DNA of 18,257 nt from IMG/VR virus record IMGVR_UViG_2600254997_000004; one strand, written 5' to 3'. The notes under the pieces were generated by a model. It made no database searches. It was not told the DNA's origin and saw only the letters and a program-made list of their open reading frames with translations. Below, in pieces: positions 1-18,257 of this stretch. A program made the position numbers and the translations under genes. Origin of the DNA: a virus (lineage: Duplodnaviria; Heunggongvirae; Uroviricota; Caudoviricetes). Position 1 is the first letter of the stretch. The number at the start of each line of letters is the position of its first letter.

Positions 1-614
1 CAGTTGTTCAGGAATATGGTGCAGCAGCTCGCCGTCGCCGCAGTAAATTGCGGCGTGATTCGGCACCGATGAACCAAAACAGCACAGCAGCACATCGCCC
101 GGCTGCGCCGCTGACAACGGCACCTGATACAGCCCTGTGGCCTCCAGATTATCCAGATAGAGATTCTGACCGTTACGCCACCAGTCATCCTCACGATGAA
201 AATCCGGCATCTCAATCCCCGCCAGATGGTAAGCGTCCCGGAACAGCGTGTAACAGTCCGTCACCCCGTGCTCAAAGCGCCGCCCGGTAAGATGTGGCAC
301 ACAGCGGAACTTGTGAATCGCCCCCGGCAGACCAGCCACCACGGCAAATCACTCTGCACCTGCAACCGCCGGTCAGCCTCACTCAGCCAGGGCAGACCAC
401 CGGGGTGGCTGTGGACCAGCGCCACAATCTCACCCTGCATCTCTGCCTGCAGCCAGTCCTCCGGAGCCATCCGGAAATAATCCTCCGGCTCACCGGAAAT
501 ATTCACGCAGGGAAAATATCTTTCCCCTTCCGGCGTTCTCACCACGAAGCCGCACGACTCCGCTGGCGCACATCGCCGGGCGTGCGCCAGAATCTCTGAT
601 TCTGTCTGTGTCAT
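1..614 (-). pseudogene. K: Tail assembly protein K (MPN/JAMM domain plus NlpC/P60 domain), split by an apparent 1-nt frameshift near 318-324; the 3' end runs off the window
   Basis: ATG at 614..612 opens a frame encoding MTQTESEILAHARR... with a JAMM-like motif (HSHPGG...SEAD) that stops at 263..261. A second frame (-1 relative to the first) is open from 348 to position 1 and encodes IHKFRCVPHLTGRRFEHGVTDCYTLFRDAY...AIYCGDGELLHHIPEQL, an NlpC/P60-like segment with Cys and His residues. In lambda both domains are one polypeptide. Confidence 0.7.
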
Positions 615-618
615 GGGA

Positions 619-1317
619 TTACTGCGAAAGTTTGTTAATGGAAAGGAAGCCGCCAAAGTTGCCGACGTTATTGCGAAACTTACAGCCGCTCAGGCATTTG
701 CTGCATTTATCCTTCGTGATATCGGACGTCGGCTGGTCATATTCATCCGCGACAGCCGGACCGTGATAACCACACTCATCACCGCGATAGGTCCAGGTGC
801 AGGTGTTGGCCAGCATGATACGCCCCGGAAAAACAGCACCATCCGTTTCCGTCGGTGTGGACAACACAAAGGAGGCACTGACCGCACTCAGTTCGCTGCA
901 CTGCTCGATGCGCCAGCGGCTGATCACCTCCTGCTCCGGATCGGCGTCGCTGTTTCCGTTGACGAAGTTCACCGCATCCAGAAAACGGGCGTAAACCTTA
1001 CGCCTGACCACCGTTCCGCCGACCAGACTCTGCAGGTCTTCCGCCATCCCCGTGACCATGCCGTGCAGGTTAGAAACCGTCAGTGTCGGACGGGCAGCAC
1101 TGCCCTTGCCGTTCAGTTCAAATCCTGTCCCCTGAATGGGGTATGCCTGATACTGCCGCCCCTGCCAGGTAACCGGCTCACCTTTTTCGTTCTGCTCATT
1201 ACAGAAAAAATAACGTTCACCACCGACCTCTGTCAGATCGATTTCCCAGAGCACCACCTGGGCTGACTGAGTGAGGCGTGTCGTCTCATGATGTGTTTCC
1301 TGTGGAATATCCTGCAT
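619..1317 (-). CDS. L: Minor tail protein L (lambda gpL-like, 232 aa)
   Basis: ATG at 1317 preceded by AGGAGG with 6-nt spacing; same length as lambda gpL with a Cys-rich C-terminus; sits between M and K as in lambda. Confidence 0.85.
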   Translation of the reverse strand: MQDIPQETHHETTRLTQSAQVVLWEIDLTEVGGERYFFCNEQNEKGEPVTWQGRQYQAYPIQGTGFELNGKGSAARPTLTVSNLHGMVTGMAEDLQSLVGGTVVRRKVYARFLDAVNFVNGNSDADPEQEVISRWRIEQCSELSAVSASFVLSTPTETDGAVFPGRIMLANTCTWTYRGDECGYHGPAVADEYDQPTSDITKDKCSKCLSGCKFRNNVGNFGGFLSINKLSQ

Positions 1318-1326
1318 CAGAGCCTC

Positions 1327-1656
1327 CTATGCCACGACCTGTTCAAAATCTGCCGTTATGGTTACCCACAGCGCCCCCACGCTTGCCGACCATTTACGAC
1401 AAACCACCCTAATCGGTTTCCAGTCATAAGGTGGCGTCCACTGAAATGCGCGGACGCCACCGTGCCGTTCCAGAAAGGCTTTTAAAGATGGGTGTTCACA
1501 TTTACGAACACGTATCGTCACGCTGTAAGTCGACAACTGGTTATTCAGTCCCGCCGCACGACGCTGTTCATAACCATCGCCCAGCTTCACTGTCACCACT
1601 TTCGGCTCTGATACCACATTCATATCCGGGCGCACTTTCCAGTGAAACGTCTCCAT
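1327..1656 (-). CDS. M: Minor tail protein M (lambda gpM-like, 109 aa)
   Basis: 109 aa, the lambda gpM length; its ATG overlaps the tape measure stop (TAATG); conserved position between H and L. Confidence 0.85.
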   Translation of the reverse strand: METFHWKVRPDMNVVSEPKVVTVKLGDGYEQRRAAGLNNQLSTYSVTIRVRKCEHPSLKAFLERHGGVRAFQWTPPYDWKPIRVVCRKWSASVGALWVTITADFEQVVA

Positions 1657-4600
1657 TACCGATATGCTCCACTTAACCGACCACCATCACGGGCCTGCTG
1701 TTGCATAAAGTCCGCTGCCGCTTTTTTCCCGAGGTCATAAACCGCCTTCAGGGCAGCCGGACCTATCTGCCCGTTCGTGCCATCGTTATTGATCTCGATG
1801 TTGTACTGCGGGGAAAACATCGCCATACCTGAACCCCCAATATCCGCCACAACCCCCAGCTTACCGTCAGCACCACGACGCAATGGCAGAATGGCTTCAG
1901 GTCCCGCTTCCCCCATCACACCTGCACCTTTTGCAAAAGCAAAAAACGTCGGACGGTTAACCACCGTGCCACTGTAGCGACTCAAATCAGCAGACTGATA
2001 AACACCACCATCAGCATTGGGCGTCACACTGGCAGTTGCTGCACTCCCCCAGCCAAACGCCGAACCAATCCCCTTAACTGCCTGCATCATGGACATCTGA
2101 GCCATGATTTTTGCCAGATCAGAAAGGAGCGAGGCGGTAAAAGATTTGAAGTTCAGTTTTCCGGTGGTACAGAATGTAGCCAGTGCATTACCTGCACTAT
2201 TAAATGCCGCTGTAAGCATCTGCTCCGCAGTGCCTGCCGCATTATCCGCATCTGCCGTGAAATTCTGAAACGCCCGCATGGCACCGTTTTTCCAGTTACC
2301 CTGAGCAATTTCAAGCTGTTGCCAGTAACGGCGATTCTCATTCAGTTGCCTGTTCAGGCTCTCCGTCAGCGCCTGCTCGGCCTTTCTGTAGTCATCCGTG
2401 TTATATGTCCCTTTCTGCTCACTATCCCGCCTCAACTGCTCCAGCTGTTGCTGGTATTTCTGGCGAAGGCTCAGTTGTACCTGATATCGCTGCCGCTGCT
2501 GATCACCCATACCCACCGTGGCGATATCCAGGTCATGTTGCTGACGCTGAGCGCGCTCTTCTTCAGCCAGTTGACTGGTCAGCTGAATTGTTTTTTTCTT
2601 CAGATCGTTGAGTGCCGTCTGTTTCTGAAGCTCCTGCTGTTTTACATCCAGCAGCGTCAGTGCCTGAATCAGTTCATCTTTACGGGCCAGCACACTCTTT
2701 TCATCTGCCGTCAGTTTTTTCCCGTCCAGGTCGCTGATGCGCTGCTGCAGAGCCAGAAGCTGTTTATGCGCTTCTGTCATCCTGTCAGTGGCAATGCCTG
2801 CTGACTGTCTGGCAGCAGCAATCTGTCCTTCCACCTGTGCCTGTTGCTGGCTGTACTGCAGCAATAACCGGGTGGCCTCATCATTACGGGTTTCGCGTGT
2901 TTTTTTCTTACCGGATGCCAGGGCTTTCTCGTAACGTTCATTTTCACGTTGTATCGCCGCATCCCTGACAGCCTGATCGGCGTACTGCATGGCATTAATA
3001 CGCGCAATTTCACGCTGATGTCGTGCTGCTTCCGTTTCATTCATCCGGTTCAGTGCAGCATTTTCAGCATTACGGCGTTTCTGTTGCTCCTGATAATTCC
3101 GCTCTGCCTGCTCTTTTGCATCCTGCAAATCCTTCTGGCGTTTTTTCTCCTGAAGCTCGTTAAGACGCTGCTGATCGTATTCAACCTGAGAAGATGATGC
3201 CGTCCAGGGGAGTCTTTTCGCCCGCGATACTTTCTCCTGCAAAGTGGCAATCTGCGCATCCAGCGAATCTTCACGACCAATATTCATGGCCGCATCCCAG
3301 AACTGCTTCCACCAGTCAGACAAGGTTTGCAGCGTACTACCCAGCGCATTGAGGTTATTATCAATATCCGCAGTACGCCGACCGGTTTCCTCTGCCAGTG
3401 CAGACATGGCTATCCGTGCCGCATCACTGGACCGCCCCTGCTCTCCAAGGATGCGTATCTGCTCAAGCTGAGTGGCAGTAAGAAAATGCAGCTCATTGTC
3501 CAGAGCCTTCGCGGCATTTACAGGATCATCCTTCAGCCGCTTAAACTGATTTATGGTATCGCTGATCGACTGGCCAACCGATCGCTCCATCTGTGCGGCA
3601 GCTCTCGCCACCATACCGATATCGTTTCCACGAAATGCACCACTCCCCACCACCTGAGCCAGCGCACCGGCTGCAGCATGTTGCGTGATACCATTCCCGG
3701 AAATAGCACGACTGAGCGTCCACAGCTGCCCGGCAGTGACTCCGGCATAATGCCCCGTCAGCGACAGCTGGCGGTTAAATTCTTCCCCCTCCTTCTGACC
3801 GTCATACCAGGCTTTACCCAGACCATAGACAGCCGCGGCAATACCGCCAATAACCCCGCCCAGCATCATGCCTTTCGGTGACATCAGTGTGTCTATCCAT
3901 CCGGCACGGTTAGCCAGCGTTATCCCGGATCCCCTCAGCGCCCCTAAATTGCCGCGGGCCAGTTCACCTATCAGAACGCCTATCTCCTGGCGGGCCGCTG
4001 CACTTTTCAGACCCAGCGAATGCGTGGCTTTTCCTGCCCGCTCCATTTTGCGGATATACACTTCTGCAGCACTGCTTACCCCCAGCTGGGCAGCCTTAGC
4101 ACGAAGCAACTCAGAAGATGAAAGATTCTGGCGGGTTGCCTGCTCTTTAAGCTGACGGATAAACGCCACTTTCTGTCGGGTACCCTCTTCCTCAGCCTGT
4201 GTAAGAACACGGGTTTTCGCCGTAACCTCAGAAATCAGCGCCAGATAATCCTGCTGACCAATCCCGCCACTGTTTCTGGCCTGTCGGATCTGCTGCTGAA
4301 TACGCTGTAATTCCTGCAGCCCCGCATTGGCCTGTTTCACACTGTCAATCTGACGATAAAACGCAGCAGCCGCTTTATCCTGAGCCTCCGCCAGAGCCAT
4401 GGCCTGCGCCTGTTCCTCGCGCATTTTCTGGCTCAGCGCCTCCATGCGCTGGCGGGTTTTCTCCACCTCGCGGGCCATGCGTTCATGAGCCTGTGCGTTC
4501 TTCTCCACCGTCTGCGCATGGACGGATGCGGCTGTTGCAGCCGAAGAAGCCGCCTGCGTTGTCTGCCGGGCGGCCTGAGTCTGACGCTCCATAAAACGCT

Positions 4601-7228: not shown

Positions 7229-7468
7229 TTACTCAATAAAGATCATTGGCTTACCGTTAAAGCGTTCATGCCGTGTGACCGTCCAATGTTGTCCGTCATA
7301 AACAACGCGATCCCCGCGCCGTGGGCGGTATCCCAAAGAAAACACCACCAGAGAGACAGCAGGTCCGGACAGAGCATTCAGCTCTGCCAGTGTTTCGCCC
7401 GGGATCACAGCCATATCGACATCATTAATCGAGGGCTGTCTTTCCCATCTTTCTGACCGTGATCGCAT
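7229..7468 (-). CDS. Small head-tail connector or head completion protein (FII-position gene), 79 aa, function not recognised
   Basis: ORF with ATG start, tightly packed between the upstream small structural gene and Z in the same orientation; no recognisable motif. Confidence 0.5.
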   Translation of the reverse strand: MRSRSERWERQPSINDVDMAVIPGETLAELNALSGPAVSLVVFSLGYRPRRGDRVVYDGQHWTVTRHERFNGKPMIFIE

Positions 7469-7497
7469 CCATACGCGCTGCCAGCCGAGAAAAGGGA

Positions 7498-7821
7498 TCA
7501 GACATTGAGTTTTACCGGCACTTCTTCTGCACTGGTTCCGGCATCTGCCCAGACAACCCCGACCAGCGGATCAGAGCCGCTGTTAGTCAGCTGAACTTTT
7601 CCGGACTTCAGATAAACCTTCTTACCCGTTTTCATGTCATCCGTTTTCAGCTTAGGCAGGATAAACACACCTTCGGTCATGCCGTCGCCTGTTTCACCCT
7701 GTGGAATATCGGTCAGCGCCACCGCAAAAACATCACCCACCTGCACCAGATCTCCGCTGCTGATGGCTGCACTGGCAACAATCGCCACCGTTTTTCCTTC
7801 TTCTACAAAATTCTTTGCCAT
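7498..7821 (-). CDS. Small capsid-associated protein (DUF2190-like; possible head decoration or connector protein)
   Basis: Start at ATG 7821 (MAKNFVEEGK) with GGAG 6 nt upstream, placed just downstream of the capsid terminator; Gly/Val-rich beta-type sequence of a kind often found right after major capsid genes. Confidence 0.6.
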   Translation of the reverse strand: MAKNFVEEGKTVAIVASAAISSGDLVQVGDVFAVALTDIPQGETGDGMTEGVFILPKLKTDDMKTGKKVYLKSGKVQLTNSGSDPLVGVVWADAGTSAEEVPVKLNV

Positions 7822-14379: not shown

Positions 14380-14550
14380 CGTGGCAGGCCACCCCACCAG
14401 GAGGACCCGTCAGCCTGACAGCCATGACGAACGTCTGATACAGCGCCCTGCATGAATGGCATCGGGATAATCCAGAAAGGAATAGCATCGTACCTACAAG
14501 AATCTGTGTGAGCGTCCTGTTTCTTCCACCCCCGCACAGGACTGGCGAGC

Positions 14551-15499: not shown

Positions 15500-15530
15500 T
15501 CATTAAATTGACTTTGTGATTTGCAAAAAA

Positions 15531-17328: not shown

Positions 17329-17439
17329 TTATTCATTCTGTTTTTTCATCATCGGCCACAGCAATACCACAATGCCGCAGACCAGAGCGCCATCAGTCAG
17401 TACCAACATTATCCTGCTGGTGAAATCCATCATCACCAT
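17329..17439 (-). CDS. Hypothetical 36-aa hydrophobic peptide (single predicted transmembrane helix, basic C-terminus)
   Basis: ATG at 17439..17437, stop TAA at 17331..17329; MVMMDFTSRIMLVLTDGALVCGIVVLLWPMMKKQNE; no clear Shine-Dalgarno; ends 4 nt before the candidate -35. Confidence 0.3.
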   Translation of the reverse strand: MVMMDFTSRIMLVLTDGALVCGIVVLLWPMMKKQNE

Positions 17440-17573
17440 CACTAAAAAGCAGGATCACAACAGCAAGCAGACACAGTTTATAAAACAATGTTCAGAAAAC
17501 GCATTCAGCATGCCTAAGGTTCTATTCCTACGAATAGCCAACTTGCAACTTAAAATATTATTTATGCAGCCAA

Positions 17574-17813: not shown

Positions 17814-17865
17814 CACAATCTCAAAAAAATGTTTTTTATAAATGGCTTATCATAGAAGCATGATA

Positions 17866-18257
17866 CTGATGAATCCCCTAATGATTTTTATCAAAATCAT
17901 TAAGTTAAGGTAGATACACATCTTGTCATATGATCAAATGGTTTCGCCAAAAATCAATAATCAGACAACAAAATGTGCGAACTCGATATTTTACACGACT
18001 CTCTTTACCAATTCTGCCCCGAATTACACTTAAAACGACTCAACAGCTTAACGTTGGCTTGCCACGCCTTACTTGACTGTAAAACTCTCACTCTTACCGA
18101 ACTTGGCCGTAACCTGCCAACCAAAGCGAGAACAAAACATAACATCAAACGAATCGACCGATTGTTAGGTAATCGTCACCTCCTCAAAGAGCGACTCGCT
18201 GTATACCGTTGGCATGCTAGCTTTATCTGTTCGGGCAATACGATGCCCATTGTACTT
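17866..18257 (+). mobile_element. IS10 (IS4 family, Tn10-type) outside end and 5' portion; continues beyond the window
   Basis: From 17866 the sequence reads CTGATGAATCCCCTAATGATTTTTATCAAAATCATTAAG..., which I recognise as the IS10 terminal inverted repeat, followed by the IS10 transposase start; abrupt junction with the AT-rich island. Confidence 0.85.
17973..18257 (+). CDS. IS10 transposase, N-terminal part (truncated by window end)
   Basis: ATG at 17973 (IS10 bp 108) opens MCELDILHDSLYQFCPELHLKRLNSLTLACHALLDCKTLTLTELGRNLPTKARTKHNIKRIDRLLGNRHLHKERLAVYRWHASFICSGNTMPIVL, open to the end of the window. Confidence 0.85.
   Translation, partial: MCELDILHDSLYQFCPELHLKRLNSLTLACHALLDCKTLTLTELGRNLPTKARTKHNIKRIDRLLGNRHLLKERLAVYRWHASFICSGNTMPIVL

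What the first reader, a model, noticed from the sequence alone, without database searches (positions are those of the whole stretch)
1..614. Tail assembly gene K is split across two reading frames
The MPN/JAMM-like N-terminal domain frame stops at 261, while the NlpC/P60-like C-terminal domain continues in the -1 frame, open from 348 to the window edge. The junction falls near a G-run around 318-324 and is consistent with a single-nucleotide deletion relative to an intact gene. K is required for lambda tail assembly, so a real frameshift would make the tail module defective unless the frameshift is corrected during translation. A sequencing error in the homopolymer is also possible.
Basis: partly seen in the sequence, partly recalled or inferred. 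Interest (0 to 1): 0.45.

Follow-up and report, generated by a model that had tools for sequence, protein, structure and literature searches.

The report
One-base frameshift in prophage tail gene K
A lambda-type prophage tail-assembly gene (K) in a draft E. coli contig is broken by the loss of one G from a run of six; this is an ordinary sequencing miscall or recent inactivating mutation, not a special coding mechanism.

Summary
K lies on the minus strand. It starts with ATG at 614 and carries a Prok-JAB domain in frame 0, which stops at TGA 263-261. The NlpC/P60 domain continues in the -1 frame, open from 348 to the window edge.

Intact homologues, including lambda, read CCGGGGGGCG. The window reads CCGGGGGCG, a G5 run at 321-325. 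Adding one G back gives an open 205-codon frame, 203/205 identical to an intact 247-aa K.

Intact K is always a single frame. The G6 form occurs at 3747 places in complete E. coli genomes and in 39 phage records. The G5 form occurs at 22 places in 16 genomes, in no phage record, and in unrelated sequence backgrounds. NCBI's PGAP annotation pipeline labels those checked "frameshifted". There is no slippery heptamer and no unusual downstream RNA structure.

The window is a whole draft contig, ALNX01000084.1, from EPEC strain E851/71. It carries four more one-base run-length changes relative to a near-identical E2348/69 prophage, and three of them break reading frames.

The frameshift is therefore not programmed. 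A sequencing miscall (about 50%) and a real recent pseudogene (about 45%) cannot be separated without reads. Interest is low.

The parts
264..614 (-). 5' part of the lambda-type tail assembly gene K in frame 0. It has 117 codons. Residues 1-98 are authentic K: a Prok-JAB/MPN domain with Glu19 and the JAMM motif H68-x-H70-x7-S78-x2-D81. Residues 99-117 are out-of-frame tail.
   Evidence: ORF and translation; PF14464, E=8.9e-15, residues 3-97; motif read directly from the translation.
321..325 (-). G5 run (C5 on the plus strand). This is the site of the missing base; intact homologues have G6 here (codons CGG GGG GCG = Arg97-Gly98-Ala99). It lies in the linker between the JAB and NlpC/P60 domains.
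   Evidence: alignment A1; coordinates; repair restores the frame; the only run of 5 or more in the K segment.
261..263 (-). Premature TGA stop met by frame 0 after the shift.
1..348 (-). The -1 frame, open to the contig edge. Bases 320 to 1 encode K residues 99-205, the NlpC/P60 papain-like peptidase domain including the Cys of 'GVTDCYT'. The last ~42 codons of K lie beyond the contig end. No credible independent start was found.
   Evidence: translation; PF00877, E=1.1e-10; matches intact K residues 99-205.
619..1317 (-). Intact minor tail protein L gene (232 aa) immediately upstream of K. This is the expected lambda order M-L-K.
   Evidence: ORF; PF05100 Phage_tail_L; synteny in E2348/69.
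529..568 (.). Mosaic crossover inside K. Window 570-1850 is identical to the E2348/69 prophage at 1.06 Mb. Window 1-527 is identical to a different K allele (the FDAARGOS_1059 type, also found in the E2348/69 prophage at 0.76 Mb) except for the missing G.
   Evidence: lists of mismatch positions.

Best explanation
The split is a non-programmed one-base contraction (G6 to G5) of a homopolymer in the linker codons Arg97-Gly98-Ala99 of an otherwise normal lambda-type K gene (JAB plus NlpC/P60, 247 aa when intact). The gene sits in a lambdoid prophage of EPEC strain E851/71. My slightly favoured reading is that the missing G is a homopolymer-length miscall in this draft contig, so the real gene is probably intact. 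Shown: the deletion, its position, the single-frame state of homologues, the rarity and scatter of the G5 form, and the other run-length changes in the contig. Inferred: that the cause is sequencing or assembly rather than mutation.
For: 1. The window is the complete 18,257-bp contig ALNX01000084.1 of draft assembly GCA_000754045.1, which is E. coli E851/71 according to PMC3897749. The site is 321 nt from the contig end, in a gene present at a median of 3 copies per E. coli genome.
2. Bases 1-527 are identical to an intact K allele except for the missing G, so there is no other sign of decay in the gene.
3. Compared with 2-4 close relatives, the contig has four more window-specific one-base run-length changes: 7433-7435 GG to GGG, 15525-15530 A7 to A6, 17444-17448 A4 to A5 and 17832-17837 T7 to T6. 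Several sit in stretches with zero substitutions over 3-4 kb. Three of them break reading frames.
4. In complete genomes the G5 form clusters by genome: 22 places in 16 genomes, up to 3 in one genome, and 5 genomes with at least 2. It can sit among runs of other 'frameshifted' genes, as in SCU-306 where L, K, I and J are all flagged. In an assembly with the record prefix UGEE01, the E and Z genes are also split. Two of the five IMG/VR contigs with G5 come from one genome. This pattern points to causes at the level of the assembly.
5. No isolated phage record carries G5, against 39 with G6.
Against: - I did not find the sequencing platform of this assembly, and no reads were available.
- Real decay is common in this prophage lineage. 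The finished E2348/69 genome has frameshifted tape-measure and J genes in the sister prophage.
- The window's prophage carries an IS4-like insertion.
- Homopolymers are also natural slippage hot spots.
- G5-type 117-aa products occur in several other assemblies.
- One G5 carrier, MS6198, is clearly a deleted prophage remnant.
Confidence: 0.5

Rival explanations
1. The G deletion is a real and very recent slippage mutation. K is then a pseudogene. It would yield a 117-aa JAB-only fragment with a 19-residue nonsense tail and no NlpC/P60 domain. The prophage could not build tails, because K is needed for lambda tail-tip assembly (established lambda genetics, from my own knowledge). The prophage would be one more decaying lambdoid element in an EPEC genome.
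For: The sister prophage in the finished E2348/69 genome has its own frameshifts in H and J. The window's prophage has an IS4-like element inserted in a late-region gene, and two complete O111:H11 genomes contain the same IS-gene junction sequence. The same G6 to G5 change recurs in unrelated backgrounds, including a prophage remnant with a large deletion. PGAP treats such copies as pseudogenes.
Against: There is no other change across 527 nt of K. The ratio of one-base indels to substitutions against E2348/69 is unusually high, with indels lying in kilobase stretches that have no substitution. All five one-base differences are homopolymer-length changes. The site lies near a contig end in a multi-copy repeat.
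Confidence: 0.44
2. The G5 sequence is real and K is still made. Either a low-level -1 ribosomal slip on C-GGG-GGC before the CGA codon produces full-length K, or the JAB domain and a separately initiated NlpC/P60 domain work as two polypeptides. K is absent from virions and may be needed only in small amounts.
For: The shift falls exactly in the interdomain linker, so both domains are left whole. K was not detected in lambda virions by mass spectrometry (PMC10721106). NlpC/P60-only versions of K exist in some prophages (PMC1779556). GTG codons at 342-337 lie in the -1 frame (read).
Against: No X_XXY_YYZ heptamer lies in frame 0. The downstream RNA fold is no better than shuffled sequence (z = -0.16). 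The two-frame state is not conserved: 22 of about 3770 places and 0 of 39 phage records. Each of the four 117-aa frameshift products checked (P0001, P0123, P0124, P0129) is recorded on a single contig. I saw no convincing ribosome-binding site before the GTGs. PMC1779556 itself suggests the NlpC-only forms are degenerate.
Confidence: 0.03
3. The G-run acts as a slippage-based on/off switch (a contingency tract) for prophage tail production.
For: The same tract changes length recurrently in independent backgrounds.
Against: The tract has only 6 bases. The off state makes up about 0.6% of copies. Related K alleles encode the same position without a G6 run: GGGGTGAG in E2348/69 and GGGGAGTG in RM12579. 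So the run itself is not conserved.
Confidence: 0.02

Closest known systems
Bacteriophage lambda tail tip assembly protein K (gpK/TAPK; 'C40 family peptidase' in PGAP)
   Same: The gene sits directly after L. It has the N-terminal Prok-JAB domain with the JAMM motif and the C-terminal NlpC/P60 domain (PMC1779556). It is 96% identical in DNA to lambda-group K genes. After repair it is 200/205 identical in protein to a lambda-group K.
   Different: One G is missing from the G6 run, so the record encodes two frames rather than one 247-codon ORF. The last ~42 codons are beyond the contig end.
PGAP-annotated 'C40 family peptidase, frameshifted' pseudogenes in E. coli prophages (for example CR540_RS12895 in 14EC047, CXG97_RS07000 in ExPEC XM, APEC2908_RS24850 in BEN2908)
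   Same: They show the identical G6 to G5 contraction at the same codons and are annotated as frameshifted.
   Different: They lie in different prophage backgrounds. The five IMG/VR contigs with G5 are 89-93% identical to the window, so these are independent events and not a shared lineage.
Lambda G/GT programmed -1 frameshift (tail assembly chaperones)
   Same: It is a two-frame arrangement in the tail module of the same kind of phage.
   Different: From my own knowledge, G/GT has a conserved slippery heptamer and the two-frame arrangement is conserved across phages. In K there is no heptamer and homologues are single-frame.
The stf frameshift of laboratory lambda
   Same: It is a non-programmed frameshift that disrupts a tail gene (PMC10721106).
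   Different: stf is dispensable for plaque formation. From my own knowledge, K is required for tail assembly.

Membership tests
Lambda gpK / TAPK (JAB + NlpC/P60 tail assembly protein) | N-terminal prokaryotic JAB/MPN domain with the JAMM metal-binding motif (E ... HxHx7Sx2D) | tested here: met
   PF14464, E=8.9e-15, residues 3-97. E19, H68, H70, S78 and D81 read from the translation.
Lambda gpK / TAPK (JAB + NlpC/P60 tail assembly protein) | C-terminal NlpC/P60 (papain-like, C40) peptidase domain | tested here: met
   PF00877, E=1.1e-10, on the -1 frame. It covers profile positions 1-81 of 105 because the contig ends. The Cys in 'DCYT' is present.
Lambda gpK / TAPK (JAB + NlpC/P60 tail assembly protein) | Gene order L - K - I - J in the tail module | tested here: inconclusive
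   L lies immediately upstream. I and J would lie beyond base 1 of the contig. Relatives show L-K-I-J.
Lambda gpK / TAPK (JAB + NlpC/P60 tail assembly protein) | Both domains in one continuous ORF of about 247 codons | tested here: not met
   Frame 0 stops at 263-261 and the second domain is in the -1 frame. One added G restores the single frame.
Programmed -1 ribosomal frameshift | Slippery heptamer X_XXY_YYZ in the zero frame within the frame overlap | tested here: not met
   None found anywhere in the K segment. The zero-frame codons at the site are CGG GGG CGA.
Programmed -1 ribosomal frameshift | Two-frame arrangement conserved among homologues | tested here: not met
   G6 single-frame form: 3747 places and 39 phage records. 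G5 form: 22 places and 0 phage records.
Programmed -1 ribosomal frameshift | Stimulatory RNA structure downstream of the slip site | tested here: not met
   The 96 nt downstream fold at -29 kcal/mol against a shuffle mean of -28.5 (z = -0.16).
Sequencing or assembly homopolymer miscall | Reads or an independent sequence of the same strain show the full-length run | not testable with these tools
   No reads were available. The window's exact tape-measure protein was found on only this one contig in the whole collection, so no independent assembly was found.
Sequencing or assembly homopolymer miscall | Other run-length discrepancies in the same contig relative to near-identical relatives | tested here: met
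   Four more one-base run changes, three of them breaking reading frames. This is also compatible with real decay.

The most novel reading that the evidence does not exclude
The G5 allele is real and K activity is kept. This could happen through occasional -1 slippage of tRNA-Gly on the G-run before the poorly decoded CGA codon. It could also happen through separate JAB and NlpC/P60 polypeptides, which would show that the two peptidase domains of K need not be covalently linked for tail-tip assembly.
Probability: 0.03. Interest if true: 0.45.

Novelty: already known. Interest (0 to 1): 0.08.

Why it matters
It matters little. If the deletion is real, this E851/71 prophage cannot make tails and is one more defective lambdoid prophage in an EPEC genome. 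If it is a miscall, it is an annotation nuisance. There is one practical point. The G6 run in the K linker recurs as a site of one-base loss in public E. coli assemblies, at about 0.6% of copies. This draft contig also carries several such run-length changes. Frameshifts in it should therefore not be read as biology without read support.

Tried and rejected
- Programmed frameshifting: there is no slippery heptamer, the downstream fold is unremarkable, and the arrangement is not conserved.
- Looking for the same allele elsewhere: an exact G5 30-mer gave 0 hits in metagenome contigs. It gave 5 IMG/VR contigs, all only 89-93% identical to the window. A pattern accepting either run length found only G6 among the species-representative genomes.
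- Exact look-up of the 117-aa product found nothing on record. The source's gene caller had called a 69-aa ORF instead. Looking that up found only the source contig and one other assembly, which has further split genes.
Only the strain name was recovered.
- The GGGAAAG heptamer next to the second frameshift (7440-7446) is at chance frequency, and a -1 slip there would not correct a +1 insertion.
- A contig-end chimera as the explanation for the right end was rejected. That end is an IS element whose junction with the interrupted gene also occurs in complete genomes.

Full report
**What is there.**
All genes in the window run on the minus strand. They form the late region of a lambdoid prophage: lysis genes, terminase, an HK97-type head, then lambda-type tail genes ending in H, M, L and K.

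K starts at ATG 614-612, five bases after the stop of L (619-1317). Frame 0 reads 117 codons and stops at TGA 263-261. The -1 frame is closed by TGA 351-349 and is then open from 348 to base 1.

Pfam finds Prok-JAB (PF14464, E=8.9e-15, residues 3-97) in frame 0 and NlpC/P60 (PF00877, E=1.1e-10) in the -1 frame. An intact homologue carries both domains in one 247-aa protein, at residues 4-98 and 111-224. The JAMM motif (E19, H68-x-H70-x7-S78-x2-D81) is intact. Two details need adjusting: the gene is on the minus strand, and the run is at 321-325.

**The lesion.**
I aligned the window with four intact K genes: a lambda-group phage, two E2348/69-type alleles and a pig isolate. All four read TGC CGG GGG GCG ATT (Cys-Arg-Gly-Ala-Ile) with six G's, and the window has five.

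Adding one G gives an uninterrupted 205-codon frame to the contig edge. That frame is 203/205 identical to the intact K of strain FDAARGOS_1059 and 200/205 identical to the lambda-group K. The shift falls after Gly98, in the linker between the two domains.

**Are homologues two-frame?**
They are not. K is annotated as a single 744-nt ORF in the relatives I checked.

I searched with 41- and 42-nt probes built so that any seed match must span the whole run. The counts are:

| Form | Complete E. coli genomes | Phage records |
|---|---|---|
| G6 (single frame) | 3747 places in 2497 genomes | 39 |
| G5 (two frames) | 22 places in 16 genomes | 0 |

- All five G5 places I opened are annotated 'C40 family peptidase, frameshifted'.
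- IMG/VR holds five G5 contigs, all only 89-93% identical to the window.
- Metagenome contigs hold no G5 copy.
- Among species-representative genomes, only G6 was found.
- The protein database holds a handful of 117-aa products with the same nonsense tail (...CRGRFTSSAVC...ALSTG). Each sits in a different background and on a single contig.

The contraction is thus recurrent, sporadic and not inherited. That is the opposite of a conserved recoding signal.

**Recoding tests.**
A -1 shift would be needed to restore the frame. The K segment has no X_XXY_YYZ heptamer in frame 0; the codons at the site are CGG GGG CGA. The 96 nt downstream fold no better than shuffled sequence (z = -0.16). Related K alleles encode this position without a G6 run: GGGGTGAG in E2348/69 and GGGGAGTG in RM12579. 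The tract itself is therefore not under selection.

**Where the window comes from.**
The window's tape-measure protein occurs on exactly one record. That record is NCBI GCA_000754045.1, contig ALNX01000084.1, length 18,257 bp, so the window is that whole contig. PMC3897749 gives ALNX00000000 as E. coli E851/71, an EPEC strain.

The closest complete relative is a prophage of EPEC E2348/69 at 1.06 Mb, 98.8% identical over 17.9 kb.

The right end of the contig (about 17,850-18,257) is the end of an IS4-like element (ISVsa5 family). It interrupts a 247-aa membrane-protein gene. The same junction exists in two complete O111:H11 genomes. The left end stops inside K, which is a multi-copy gene with a median of 3 copies per genome.

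**Artefact or real mutation?**
The evidence points both ways.

Evidence for a miscall:
- Against E2348/69, RM12579 and two IMG/VR relatives, the contig has four more window-specific one-base run-length changes. Details are in the table below.
- Between 4,500 and 17,873 there are only about 25 substitutions, many of them clustered. Several of the indels sit in 3-4 kb stretches with no substitution.
- Bases 1-527 are identical to an intact K allele apart from the missing G.
- In complete genomes G5 clusters by genome. Five of the 16 genomes have at least 2 places and one has 3.
- G5 often sits next to other 'frameshifted' genes.

| Position | Change | Effect |
|---|---|---|
| 7433-7435 | GG to GGG | Splits a conserved 91-aa head-tail gene into 26- and 79-codon ORFs |
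| 15525-15530 | A7 to A6 | Intergenic |
| 17444-17448 | A4 to A5 | Splits the DUF3927 gene |
| 17832-17837 | T7 to T6 | Lies in the IS-truncated gene |

Evidence for a real mutation:
- The finished E2348/69 genome has its own frameshifts in the tape-measure and J genes of the sister prophage.
- The window's prophage carries an IS insertion whose junction also occurs in two complete genomes.
- One G5 carrier is a plainly deleted prophage remnant.
- Homopolymers are natural slippage sites.

I put a miscall at about 0.50 and a real recent pseudogene at about 0.44. Functional two-frame readings together get about 0.05.

**Consequences.**
If the deletion is real, the product is a 117-aa JAB fragment with 19 nonsense residues, and the NlpC/P60 domain is not translated. 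I found no credible start for that domain; the GTGs at 342-337 have no convincing ribosome-binding site.

K is a non-virion assembly factor (PMC10721106). It is thought to act with the ubiquitin-like protein I (PMC1779556). By classical lambda genetics (my own knowledge, not tested here) tail-tip assembly needs it, so the prophage would be tail-defective.

**Comparison and novelty.**
This is lambda K with an ordinary homopolymer indel, the kind PGAP flags routinely. It is not a new kind of element, and nothing here would surprise a phage specialist.

Noticed in passing
window 7229-7505 (- strand), run at 7433-7435: There is a second frameshift in the same contig. The conserved 91-aa head-tail gene (annotated 'DNA breaking-rejoining protein' in relatives) is split into 26- and 79-codon ORFs by GG to GGG. 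All four relatives compared have GG.
   Followed up: partly
window 17329-17488 (- strand), run at 17444-17448: The small DUF3927 gene (52 aa in E2348/69 and RM12579) is split into 31- and 37-codon ORFs by an A4 to A5 change (T-run on the coding strand).
   Followed up: partly
window ~17850-18257: The contig ends in the terminus of an IS4-like element (ISVsa5 family). The element interrupts a 247-aa membrane-protein gene, of which only the C-terminal ~90 codons remain, and these carry a further T7 to T6 change at 17832-17837. The same IS-gene junction occurs in two complete O111:H11 genomes.
   Followed up: partly
window 529-568 (inside K): There is a mosaic junction. Window 570-1850 is identical to the E2348/69 prophage at 1.06 Mb. 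Window 1-527 matches a different K allele, that of FDAARGOS_1059 and the E2348/69 prophage at 0.76 Mb. This is either natural recombination between co-resident lambdoid prophages or an assembly join in a repeat near the contig end.
   Followed up: partly
window 14411-14418: An 8-bp tandem duplication (CAGCCTGA before CAGCC) relative to E2348/69. It lies in the non-coding stretch upstream of the small terminase gene, near the expected cos region.
   Followed up: no
window 2618 / L005 8600: The tape-measure gene is intact in the window (1024 aa). In the finished E2348/69 genome it is frameshifted by a one-base deletion at a non-homopolymer site. This shows real decay in the sister prophage.
   Followed up: partly
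window 2000-2300 and 3140-3340: The tape-measure gene contains two highly divergent patches with many substitutions and in-frame-looking indels relative to E2348/69. The rest of the gene is near-identical, which suggests recombinational mosaicism.
   Followed up: no
L137 (UGEE01000003.1, GCA_900449745.1): Another assembly encodes the identical 69-aa frameshifted K fragment in a lambda-head-type prophage. Its major capsid gene E and tail gene Z are also each split in two.
   Followed up: no
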